Shown: one piece after another, positions 1-1,031 of the stretch | Layout: each line of letters begins with the position of its first letter | Numbering within the stretch: the first letter of the stretch is position 1 | Source: Escherichia coli | GTDB taxonomy: Bacteria > Pseudomonadota > Gammaproteobacteria > Enterobacterales > Enterobacteriaceae | NCBI RefSeq assembly: GCF_003334355.1 | Contig: NZ_QOWP01000098.1 | DNA length: 1,031 nt | Strand: one strand, 5' to 3' | The notes under the pieces: model-generated | What the model was told of the DNA's origin: nothing | Seen by the model: the letters and a program-made list of their open reading frames with translations, nothing else | Database searches by the model: none | Program-made: the position numbers and the translations under genes

Positions 1-120
1 ATTGGTGCCCCCACCGGCGTGGCCTGTTCGGTGTGCCCCGGCGGAGTGACGTCCGGCCATCCGGTCAATCCCCTGCTCGGTGCAAAGGTCCTTCCCGGTG
101 AAACCGACATCGCCCTGCCC
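1..120 (+). other. C-terminal part of a PAAR-like domain (PAAR_RHS type) within the Rhs CDS; domain boundary approximate
   Basis: The segment IGAPTGVACSVCPGGVTSGHPVNPLLGAKVLPGETD has two Cys and one His in a Gly/Pro-rich context, consistent with the metal-binding cone of PAAR domains. It resembles the region just after the N-terminal PAAR motif of E. coli Rhs proteins. The start of the domain and of the gene should lie roughly 100 nt upstream of the window. Confidence 0.55.
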
Positions 121-1031
121 GCCCCGCTGCCGTTCATCCTCTCCCGCACCTACAGCAGTTACCGGACAAAAACGCCCGCGCCGGTGGGGAGCCTCGGCCC
201 CGGCTGGAAAATGCCTGCGGATATCCGCTTACAGCTGCGCGATAACACACTGATACTCAGTGATAACGGCGGCAGAAGCCTGTATTTTGAGCACCTGTTT
301 CCCGGTGAGGACGGTTACAGCCGCAGCGAGTCACTGTGGCTGGTGCGCGGCGGCGTCCTGAGACTGGATGAAGGTCACCGGCTGGCCGCACTCTGGCAGG
401 CGCTGCCGGAAGAACTCCGCTTAAGTCCGCATCGTTATCTGGCGACAAACAGTCCGCAGGGGCCGTGGTGGCTGCTCGGCTGGTGTGAGCGGGTGCCGGA
501 AGCGGATGAGGTGCTGCCTGCGCCGCTGCCGCCGTACCGGGTACTGACCGGGCTGGTGGACCGCTTCGGGCGCACACAGACGTTCCACCGCGAAGCCGCC
601 GGTGAATTCAGCGGCGAAATCACCGGCGTGACGGATGGTGCCGGGCGTCACTTCCGGCTGGTACTGACCACGCAGGCGCAGCGGGCAGAAGAAGCCCGGC
701 AGCAGGCCATTTCCGGCGGGACGGAACCGTCCGCTTTTCCTGATACCCTGCCGGGTTACACCGAATATGGCCGGGACAACGGCATCCGTCTGTCTGCCGT
801 GTGGCTGACGCACGACCCGGAATACCCGGAGAATTTACCTGCCGCGCCGCTGGTGCGCTATGGCTGGACGCCACGCGGCGAACTGGCGGTGGTGTATGAC
901 CGTAGTGGCAAACAGGTGCGCAGCTTTACTTACGATGATAAATACCGGGGCCGGATGGTGGCGCACCGTCACACGGGCCGGCCGGAAATCCGTTACCGTT
1001 ACGACAGCGACGGGCGGGTGACAGAACAGCT
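1..1031 (+). CDS. Rhs-family protein (PAAR-linked polymorphic toxin, probable T6SS effector), N-terminal region; partial CDS open at both ends, codon phase starts at nt 1
   Basis: Frame +1 is open for all 343 codons, which is very unlikely by chance over 1 kb. The translation carries hallmark Rhs N-terminal stretches (GAPTGVACSVCPGG, NPLLGAKVLPGETD, LPFILSRTYSSYRTKTPAPVG, GPWWLLGWCERVP, LPAPLPPYRVLTG, GEITGVTDGAGRHFRLVLTTQAQRAEEAR) and ends in YD-repeat motifs (RYRYDSDGRV). Codon usage (ctg, ccg, gcg, ggc) fits Enterobacteriaceae. The family is recognised from memory of E. coli Rhs proteins; the paralog (rhsA/B/C/D-like) cannot be assigned without a search. Confidence 0.9.
   Translation, partial: MGAPTGVACSVCPGGVTSGHPVNPLLGAKVLPGETDIALPAPLPFILSRTYSSYRTKTPAPVGSLGPGWKMPADIRLQLRDNTLILSDNGGRSLYFEHLFPGEDGYSRSESLWLVRGGVLRLDEGHRLAALWQALPEELRLSPHRYLATNSPQGPWWLLGWCERVPEADEVLPAPLPPYRVLTGLVDRFGRTQTFHREAAGEFSGEITGVTDGAGRHFRLVLTTQAQRAEEARQQAISGGTEPSAFPDTLPGYTEYGRDNGIRLSAVWLTHDPEYPENLPAAPLVRYGWTPRGELAVVYDRSGKQVRSFTYDDKYRGRMVAHRHTGRPEIRYRYDSDGRVTEQ
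880..939 (+). other. YD-repeat-like motif within the Rhs CDS (ELAVVYDRSGKQVRSFTYDD)
   Basis: YD dipeptides followed by R/G-rich turns fit the beta-hairpin YD/RHS repeat pattern. This is a protein-level repeat, not a DNA repeat. Confidence 0.5.
976..1031 (+). other. Canonical RHS/YD repeat within the Rhs CDS (GRPEIRYRYDSDGRVTEQ)
   Basis: RYRYDSDGRV matches the RHS repeat consensus RxxYxYDxxGR(L/V). This marks the start of the repeat shell that continues beyond the window. Confidence 0.7.

What the first reader, a model, noticed from the sequence alone, without database searches (positions are those of the whole stretch)
1..1031. Multi-copy conserved Rhs core: recombination and assembly caveat
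Established knowledge: enterobacterial genomes often carry several rhs paralogs whose conserved regions are near-identical over kilobases. They act as substrates for homologous recombination (the original 'rearrangement hot spot') and commonly cause collapsed or chimeric assemblies. This window lies in that conserved portion, so its linkage to any particular downstream toxin tip should be verified.
Basis: established knowledge. Interest (0 to 1): 0.25.

Follow-up and report, generated by a model that had tools for sequence, protein, structure and literature searches.

The report
Multi-copy E. coli Rhs toxin core
This 1-kb window is an ordinary piece of the conserved body of an E. coli Rhs toxin gene that most strains carry in about three near-identical copies, so it cannot say which chromosomal site or which toxin end it belongs to.

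Summary
Frame +1 is open across all 1031 bases and encodes residues 28-370 of an E. coli clade-I Rhs protein of the RhsA/B/C/"F" subfamily (NCBIfam RHS_core 703 bits; Pfam DUF6531). In 5,426 complete E. coli genomes, 3,887 carry the segment, at 12,456 places: median 3 per genome, range 1-8. The window matches at 100% at two different loci carrying different toxin tips: rpmE-yiiX in strain 19M19 and kdp/ybfA-ybfC in strain CFIAFB20180511. It matches at 99.9% at a third locus, nikR-yhhH. These two 100% copies first differ at the base just after the window ends. Shared homology starts at the ATG and runs about 3.7 kb, leaving about 2.6 kb of shared core between the window and the tip. Same-genome paralogs share exact runs of 1.4-3.3 kb; K-12 rhsC is the exception. 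Their variant sites form a recombinant mosaic. Public records and one paper show rhs-caused contig breaks and misfiled contigs. Two caveats: whether rhs drives natural chromosomal rearrangement is disputed, and the window's own source genome and reads could not be examined.

The parts
1..1031 (+). Internal fragment (codons 28-370, ORF nt 82-1112) of a clade-I rhs core ORF of the RhsA/B/C/'F' subfamily. High GC: 64.9% overall, 72.6% at third codon positions.
   Evidence: Open frame +1. RHS_core 703 bits. 100% match to the rhs gene at L001 11920-16104. 99.3% to K-12 rhsA and rhsB, 98.2% to rhsC, 76% to rhsD. GC values.
1..60 (+). C-terminal end (protein aa 28-47) of the short PAAR-like N-terminal fragment. 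By homology with Tse5-NT this part threads into the shell.
   Evidence: The full-length protein starts MSGKPAARQGD.... In Tse5, the NT fragment is M1-K47, is PAAR-like, and has residues 30-47 anchored inside the shell (PMC10684867). Assigned by homology only.
58..63 (+). Predicted N-terminal self-cleavage site His47|Pro48 (window aa 20|21, codons CAT CCG).
   Evidence: PDB 8cp6 chain B, the Tse5 shell fragment, begins at PVNP, which aligns to window aa 21. Tse5 is cleaved between K47 and P48. Codons checked. Cleavage in the E. coli protein was not tested.
55..288 (+). [quoted passage not shown]
   Evidence: Pfam PF20148 at aa 19-96, E = 2.4e-17. The Tse5 plug, residues 48-124, is DUF6531. Tse5 aligns to window aa 21-158, E = 1.3e-17.
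775..1026 (+). First YD/RHS repeats of the cocoon wall.
   Evidence: Two weak Pfam RHS_repeat matches at aa 291-324 and 317-342, E about 1 each. Second Tse5 alignment block at aa 259-336, E = 6.6e-4. The region is covered by the RHS_core model.
3..72 (+). The only three sites (window positions 3, 45, 72) that separate the rpmE-locus copy from the kdp-locus copy in genome 19M19. Window 73-1031 is identical in both.
   Evidence: The exact run between these two paralogs covers ORF nt 154-2888.
873..981 (+). Cluster of 9-10 variant sites that travels as a block. It is shared by the yibF-locus copy of 19M19 and the kdp-locus copy of K-12, and looks like an inter-locus exchange tract.
   Evidence: Mismatch lists. 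Variant matrix.
552..559 (+). One Chi octamer, GCTGGTGG. Not enriched.
   Evidence: 1 match, and 17 of 200 shuffles give at least 1. A second Chi lies at ORF nt 2433.

Best explanation
The window is part of the conserved 3.7-kb core of an E. coli clade-I rhs gene. It encodes three things: the end of a short PAAR-like N-terminal fragment with a predicted His47|Pro48 self-cleavage site, the DUF6531 plug, and the first YD repeats of the cocoon that encloses a variable C-terminal toxin. This core subfamily sits at up to four chromosomal sites: kdp/ybfA-phr, nikR-yhhJ, yibF-yibH and rpmE-yiiX. Homology starts at the ATG and ends at the PxxxxDPxGL motif. Because the copies are 97-99.7% identical over kilobases, they exchange sequence by homologous recombination. 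Two kinds of exchange are visible: patches moving between cores, and whole toxin tips with their immunity genes moving between loci. In practice the 1031 bases are not locus-specific. Identical copies occur at different loci with different tips, and about 2.6 kb of shared core separates the window from the tip. Short-read assemblies therefore break, collapse or mis-join here. Shown here: identity, copy number, extent of homology, the mosaic, different loci and tips for the same sequence, and examples of broken or misfiled contigs. Inferred: the protein-level roles (by homology with Tse5), and that the mosaic arose by RecA-type conversion.
For: - Identity and domains.
- Copy number: (12,456 places in 3,887 of 5,426 genomes, median 3, maximum 8).
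- Loci: rpmE-yiiX, 100%; ybfA-ybfC, 100%; nikR-yhhH, 99.9%; K-12 rhsA/B/C.
- Extent of homology and end motif.
- Within-genome near-identity. 19M19 F/C differ at 14 of 3500 bases with an exact run of 2735 bp. H1 A/B differ at 12 with a run of 3275 bp. K-12 A/B differ at 18 with a run of 1811 bp and no differences in the window segment.
- Mosaic and recombination test.
- Different tips.
- The two 100% hits are identical over ORF nt 1-1112 and differ first at nt 1113.
- Tip displacement at the 19M19 yibF locus: an rhsB-type DUF4329 fragment plus yhhH lies upstream of yibA, while the nikR site is empty.
- Assembly artefacts in public records.
- Literature: PMC2935791, PMC3045373, PMC10684867, PMC5809092 (putative conversions in rhsB and rhsC).
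Against: - The source genome is unknown. At least one E. coli genome has a single copy and 1,539 of 5,426 have none at megablast sensitivity, so multi-copy status of the actual source is probable, not shown.
- Not every paralog pair is homogenised. K-12 rhsC differs from rhsA and rhsB at 100 of 3500 sites, with a longest exact run of 341 bp.
- Jackson et al. 2009 state that cores cluster by position and that inter-locus core recombination is infrequent if any. They also deny a natural rearrangement role.
- The very high within-genome identity in 19M19 and H1 could be partly inflated by repeat collapse or short-read polishing in those assemblies.
Confidence: 0.9

Rival explanations
1. In the window's own genome this is a single-copy rhs gene, so the caveat is moot for this sequence.
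For: The lowest count of places per positive genome is 1, and 28% of complete E. coli genomes have no copy. Jackson et al. describe a group of pathogenic strains that lack the clade-I expansion.
Against: The median is 3 places per positive genome. All 30 listed genomes with at least 99.9% identity to the window have 3-5 places. The three genomes I dissected each have three copies.
Confidence: 0.08
2. The near-identity of paralogs within 19M19 and H1 is largely an assembly or polishing artefact. Multi-mapping short reads would homogenise repeat copies, so no biological conversion is needed.
For: In both genomes paralog differences survive only near the edges of the 3.7-kb repeat, where unique flanks anchor reads. 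The exact runs span ORF nt 154-2888 and 193-3467. Misfiled and error-rich rhs contigs exist in public records.
Against: K-12 MG1655, finished from ordered clones (my knowledge), also shows rhsA/rhsB closer to each other (18 differences) than to their positional counterparts in H1 (42 and 44). Variant blocks are shared between different loci in independent assemblies, for example window 873-981 in 19M19-A and K12-C. Polishing within one genome cannot create that. True conversion also predicts tracts internal to the homology block.
Confidence: 0.3
3. The paralogs are similar because each lineage duplicated its rhs gene recently and independently, or because purifying selection freezes the sequence. 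Inter-locus recombination would then play no part.
For: Jackson et al. infer that positions 10 and 11 arose by duplication of position 5, and position 9 arose later. The core encodes a structurally constrained cocoon.
Against: The same flanking genes bound the loci in all strains examined, so the loci predate the strains. Half of informative site pairs are four-gamete incompatible, and nearby sites are more compatible than distant ones. Selection cannot explain 2-3 kb runs identical at every synonymous site when positional counterparts between strains differ at 1.2-2.9%. About half of the variable sites lie in codons that stay synonymous.
Confidence: 0.05

Closest known systems
E. coli K-12 rhsA, rhsB and rhsC (Hill-lab RhsA-B-C-F subfamily; Jackson et al. 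2009 clade I, positions 10, 9, 5 and 11)
   Same: 99.3%, 99.3% and 98.2% nucleotide identity over the whole window without gaps. Same ATG-to-PxxxxDPxGL core of about 3.7 kb. Same chromosomal sites. High-GC core (62%) and AT-rich tip (31%).
   Different: The exact sequence is not in K-12. The 100% matches are at the rpmE-yiiX site, which is empty in K-12 and H1, and at the kdp site of another strain. The attached tips differ from the K-12 rhsA and rhsC tips.
E. coli K-12 rhsD / rhsE (second clade-I subfamily)
   Same: Same architecture and the same N-terminal residues.
   Different: Only 76% nucleotide identity with 13 gaps over the window. This is too divergent to be found by megablast or to recombine efficiently with this copy.
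Pseudomonas aeruginosa Tse5 (PDB 8cp6/9i9y) and P. protegens RhsA (7q97), T6SS PAAR-Rhs effectors
   Same: The short PAAR-like N-terminal fragment, a proline at position 48 at the N-terminal cleavage point, the DUF6531 plug and the YD-repeat shell align to window aa 21-158 and 259-336 (PMC10684867).
   Different: The residue before the scissile bond is His rather than Lys. Cleavage, T6SS dependence and VgrG partner are untested for the E. coli protein. K-12 lacks a T6SS (my knowledge).
Other dispersed kilobase repeats that break bacterial assemblies (rRNA operons, IS elements, tufA/B)
   Same: rhs elements are listed alongside these as causes of contig breaks in E. coli shotgun assemblies (PMC3045373).
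   Different: rhs repeats are protein-coding. Each copy ends in a different functional toxin/immunity module, so a mis-join changes the predicted phenotype and not only the contiguity.

Membership tests
Rhs element core protein (NCBIfam NF041261 RHS_core; E. coli clade I) | Sequence match to the curated RHS_core model | tested here: met
   703 bits, E = 6.7e-211, over model positions 28-378 of 1261. The 2000-bit whole-protein cut-off cannot be reached by a 343-aa fragment. The full gene at the 100% match is annotated as an rhs element protein in RefSeq.
Rhs element core protein (NCBIfam NF041261 RHS_core; E. coli clade I) | YD/RHS repeats forming the cocoon | tested here: inconclusive
   Inside the window only two weak Pfam RHS_repeat matches, E about 1. 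They are supported indirectly by alignment to the Tse5 shell. Most repeats lie downstream of the window.
Rhs element core protein (NCBIfam NF041261 RHS_core; E. coli clade I) | Core ends at the PxxxxDPxGL motif, followed by a variable AT-rich tip and a small immunity ORF | tested here: met
   This lies outside the window and was tested on the exact-match locus. PVNSMDPLGL is at aa 1238-1247, the tip is 147 aa at 30.9% GC, and dsORF-f3 follows. The same layout holds at the other loci.
Rhs element core protein (NCBIfam NF041261 RHS_core; E. coli clade I) | Core GC content well above the host genome | tested here: met
   Window 64.9%, core 62.1%, against 52.9% for 11.9 kb of flank.
RhsA-B-C-F subfamily (positions 5, 9, 10, 11 of Jackson et al.) | At least ~97% nucleotide identity to rhsA/B/C cores and location at one of the four flank-defined sites | tested here: met
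   98.2-99.3% to K-12 rhsA/B/C against 76% to rhsD. The exact and 99.9% matches are at rpmE-yiiX, ybfA-ybfC and nikR-yhhH. The position table is in PMC2935791.
   Median 3 places per positive genome. Exact runs of 1409-3275 bp in 7 of 9 within-genome pairs. Not testable for the window's own genome.
   2367 of 4753 site pairs are four-gamete incompatible. PHI-type test: 0 of 2000 permutations. Cores cluster by genome, not locus. The same tip type occurs at different loci. Caveat: possible polishing artefacts in two of the three genomes.
T6SS PAAR-Rhs effector | PAAR-like N-terminus, N-terminal autocleavage, secretion through a VgrG spike | not testable with these tools
   Only homology is available: the PAARQGD motif at aa 5-11 of the full protein and P48 aligned to the first residue of the Tse5 shell chain.

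The most novel reading that the evidence does not exclude
The four 'almost identical' clade-I rhs cores of E. coli (kdp, nikR, yibF and rpmE sites) may evolve in concert through frequent inter-locus gene conversion. A core would then resemble the other cores of its own genome more than the core at the same site in another strain. In my sample the median is 25 differences per 3.5 kb within a genome against 67.5 for the same site between genomes. This would contradict the 2009 conclusion that these cores cluster by position and can be treated as positional orthologs. Core sequence would then carry no locus information, and only flanks and tips would.
Probability: 0.5. Interest if true: 0.3.

Novelty: already known. 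Interest (0 to 1): 0.15.

Why it matters
The value is practical, not conceptual. Anyone typing Rhs toxins, predicting toxin/immunity repertoires, calling SNPs or inferring phylogeny from short-read E. coli data should mask the 3.7-kb core or resolve it with long reads. This segment can be joined to the wrong flank or the wrong toxin tip without any visible error. The public-record examples found here show that this happens: an E. coli rhs contig filed as a Klebsiella plasmid, 10-15 kb 'plasmids', and 'phage' nodes. The side observation that cores group by genome rather than by locus would, if confirmed with long reads, refine how rhs orthology is assigned. It would not change the understanding of what Rhs proteins do.

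Tried and rejected
- **Rfam scan** of both strands at E up to 1 found nothing, so there is no structured RNA.
- **Minus-strand ORFs** of up to 130 aa are the usual by-product of a 65% GC coding region. No evidence supports them.
- **Internal repeats:** only trivial 14-24 nt pairs.
- **Chi site:** one in the window, not enriched, since 17 of 200 shuffles also give at least one. I rejected it as an explanation for recombination proneness.
- **Tip naming:** NCBIfam found nothing for four tips. Pfam named the 19M19 rpmE-locus tip DUF4329 and found nothing for the ybfC-linked tip.
- **'RhsF' name:** I tried to confirm it from the original Hill-lab papers (PubMed 7868617 and 9696756, PMC176749). None is held. 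The link rests on the RefSeq product name 'dsORF-f3', Jackson's position 11 and my recollection.
- **EHEC 'RhsF/RhsFI'** in PMC7618764 lies in S-loop 44 and uses a different naming scheme, so I did not use it.
- **Subfamily guess:** I first guessed from memory that the protein was RhsD-like. The BLAST comparison showed the opposite.
- **Copies in one record:** the search tool lists only the best place per record, so the other copies in 19M19 and H1 had to be located by synteny.

Full report
**What is there.** The window has one open frame, +1, with 343 codons and no stop. The other two forward frames are full of stops, and the minus-strand ORFs are short. The product matches the NCBIfam equivalog model RHS_core (NF041261) over its whole length, at model positions 28-378 of 1261, 703 bits, E = 6.7e-211. 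Pfam finds DUF6531 at aa 19-96, E = 2.4e-17, plus two weak RHS_repeat matches near the end. GC is 64.9% overall and 72.6% at third codon positions. This compares with 52.9% in 11.9 kb of E. coli flank, 62.1% for the whole core and 30.9% for the toxin tip. Rfam finds nothing on either strand.

**Where it sits in the gene.** A 100% match places the window at ORF nt 82-1112 (codons 28-370) of a 4185-nt rhs gene in E. coli 19M19. Compared with K-12, the window is 99.3% identical to rhsA and rhsB, 98.2% to rhsC and 76% to rhsD. It therefore belongs to the RhsA/B/C("F") subfamily. Homology between paralogs begins at the ATG, and upstream flanks are unrelated to within 1 nt of it. It runs ungapped for about 3.7 kb and ends at the PxxxxDPxGL motif, aa 1238-1247, after which the tips are unrelated. 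About 2.6 kb of shared core therefore lies between the window's end and any tip.

**What this part of the protein does (by homology).** The best solved relative is P. aeruginosa Tse5 (8cp6). Its chain B, the shell fragment, begins at PVNP, which aligns to window aa 21, or Pro48 of the full protein. The Tse5 paper shows four relevant things (PMC10684867):
- Tse5 self-cleaves between K47 and P48.
- The 5-kDa N-terminal fragment is PAAR-like.
- Residues 30-47 of that fragment are anchored inside the shell.
- The N-terminal plug, residues 48-124, is DUF6531.

By this homology the window encodes the following:
- nt 1-60: the end of the PAAR-like fragment.
- nt 58-63: a predicted His47|Pro48 cleavage site.
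- nt 55-288: the plug.
- From about nt 775: the first YD repeats.

None of this was tested biochemically for the E. coli protein.

**Copy number.** Megablast against 5,426 complete E. coli genomes finds 12,456 places in 3,887 genomes, with a median of 3 per positive genome and a range of 1-8. In 3,879 genomes a place covers at least 80% of the window. All 30 listed genomes with at least 99.9% identity have 3-5 places.

**The same 1 kb at different loci with different tips.** The window is 100% identical to two copies at different sites:
- In 19M19 it lies between rpmE and yiiX. The tip there is a DUF4329 type, followed by 'dsORF-f3'.
- In CFIAFB20180511 it lies between ybfA/kdp and ybfC. The tip there is unrelated to the 19M19 tip and has no Pfam match.

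It is also 99.9% identical to the copy between nikR and yhhH in strain H1, which carries the K-12 rhsB tip. The two 100% copies are identical over ORF nt 1-1112 and first differ at nt 1113, the base just after the window ends. The window therefore cannot be assigned to a locus or a tip. These sites are positions 11, 5 and 9 of Jackson et al. 2009. That paper calls the cores at positions 5 and 9-11 'almost identical' and notes that the same tip can sit at different loci (PMC2935791).

**Within-genome comparison.** I located all copies in three genomes by synteny:
- 19M19: rpmE, yibF and kdp sites. The nikR site holds hicAB instead.
- H1: yibF, nikR and kdp sites. The rpmE site is empty.
- K-12: rhsA, rhsB and rhsC.

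Over ORF nt 1-3500, within-genome pairs differ at 12, 14, 18, 22, 25, 27, 36, 100 and 100 sites (median 25). Copies at the same site in different genomes differ at 42-101 sites (median 67.5). Longest exact runs within a genome are 1409-3275 bp, except for K-12 rhsC, where the longest is 341 bp. In 19M19 the rpmE copy differs from the kdp copy at only three window positions (3, 45, 72). In K-12, rhsA and rhsB do not differ at all in this segment. UPGMA groups the cores by genome, not by locus.

**Evidence of exchange.** Among ten cores there are 158 variable sites in the first 3500 nt, shown for eight of them. Of 4753 pairs of informative sites, 2367 fail the four-gamete test. Neighbouring sites are more compatible than shuffled ones (PHI-type statistic 0.457 against 0.498 ± 0.010; 0 of 2000 permutations as low). 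Variant blocks cross loci and strains. The cluster at window 873-981 is shared by the 19M19 yibF-site copy and the K-12 kdp-site copy. The cluster at 357-362 is shared by K-12 rhsA, rhsB and rhsC. Tips also move. At the 19M19 yibF site an IS3-interrupted core is followed by an rhsB-type DUF4329 fragment plus yhhH, then yibA. This is the tip-displacement arrangement modelled by Jackson et al.. An evolution experiment lists putative gene conversions in rhsB and rhsC (PMC5809092).

**A caveat on my own analysis.** In 19M19 and H1 the paralog differences lie only near the edges of the repeat. True conversion would produce that pattern. So would multi-mapping short reads homogenising repeat copies during polishing. 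K-12, which I recall was finished from ordered clones, still shows rhsA/rhsB (18 differences) closer to each other than to their positional counterparts in H1 (42 and 44). Cross-strain shared blocks also cannot be polishing artefacts. Even so, the strength of the 'cluster by genome' result needs long-read confirmation. Jackson et al. concluded the opposite: that cores cluster by position and inter-locus recombination is infrequent. Their network, however, included the tips.

**Assembly consequences in public data.**
- The plasmid collection holds a linear 5,191-bp 'Klebsiella oxytoca plasmid unnamed17'. It is E. coli kdpA-kdpF-ybfA plus 2,771 nt of rhs core, and the contig ends inside the core.
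- There are non-mobilizable 7-15 kb 'plasmids' with rhs core at 84-96% identity. The one inspected (CP088628.1, 10.2 kb) has only three short ORFs called.
- Megabase-sized 'plasmids' in the same hit list are evidently chromosomal pieces.
- The phage collection holds 1.6-kb and 3.3-kb records that contain rhs core. The 1.6-kb one is marked UNVERIFIED_ORG and is a coverage-2 assembly node.
- Lyons et al. 2011 list rhsA-E among 62 common contig breaks in K-12 shotgun assemblies. [quoted passage not shown]

**Verdict.** Two nuances apply:
- The 'rearrangement hot spot' label comes from a selected recA-dependent rhsA x rhsB unequal crossover. Jackson et al. dispute a natural rearrangement role. What I see is consistent with conversion-like exchange and tip shuffling.
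- Copy number and linkage in the window's own genome remain untested, because neither the genome nor the reads are available.

This is established knowledge applied correctly, so interest is low.

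Noticed in passing
L007 25064-34303 (NZ_CP147048.1 525063-534302) and L010 11562-12669: In strain 19M19 the yibF-site rhs core is a pseudogene cut by an IS3. It is followed by an rhsB-type DUF4329 tip fragment plus yhhH, placed ahead of the usual yibA/yibG array. The nikR-yhhJ site, which holds rhsB in K-12 and H1, carries a hicAB toxin-antitoxin pair instead. This looks like a tip displaced between loci.
   Followed up: partly
L013 (NZ_CP069926.1, whole record 1-5191): A linear 5.2-kb record deposited as 'Klebsiella oxytoca plasmid unnamed17' is E. coli chromosomal DNA: kdpA, kdpF, ybfA and 2,771 nt of rhs core at 99.3% identity to the window. The contig ends inside the core. 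It is probably E. coli contamination plus a repeat-induced contig break.
   Followed up: partly
L014 (CP088628.1, 10,245 bp); also CP088347.1, CP048292.1, CP061233.1, CP061260.1, CP061270.1, CP099174.1, NZ_OL790696.1: Several non-mobilizable 'plasmids' carry this rhs core. The small circular ones match at 84-96% identity. CP088628.1, the one inspected, has only three short ORFs called, which suggests error-rich long-read artefacts. The records of 0.28-4.8 Mb look like chromosome pieces filed as plasmids.
   Followed up: partly
L015 (OR844800.1, 1-1611) and OR845342.1: Two short 'Escherichia phage' records (1.6 and 3.3 kb) match the rhs core at over 99% identity. The 1.6-kb record is marked UNVERIFIED_ORG and is a coverage-2 assembly node. 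This is host DNA, not phage.
   Followed up: partly
window 1031 / L001 13032 versus L008 7032: The two database copies that match the window at 100% sit at different loci in different strains. They are identical from the ATG to ORF nt 1112 and first differ at nt 1113, the base immediately after the window's last base.
   Followed up: yes
L004 3584-7777 (K-12 rhsC): K-12 rhsC is an outlier. It differs at about 91-102 of 3500 core sites from every other core examined, including kdp-site copies of three other strains and its own genome's rhsA and rhsB. Homogenisation is therefore not universal.
   Followed up: partly
window 552-559 (+); L001 14352: There is one Chi octamer in the window and a second later in the core, both on the coding strand. 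This is not more than composition predicts.
   Followed up: yes
L001 16106-17191: At the rpmE-yiiX site the rhs gene is followed by 'dsORF-f3' and a frameshifted IS1 transposase. The name 'RhsF' is used in recent EHEC papers for a different locus (S-loop 44, ECs0604 region), so the rhs letter names are ambiguous. RefSeq itself labels near-identical cores variously as RhsA, RhsB or RhsC.
   Followed up: partly
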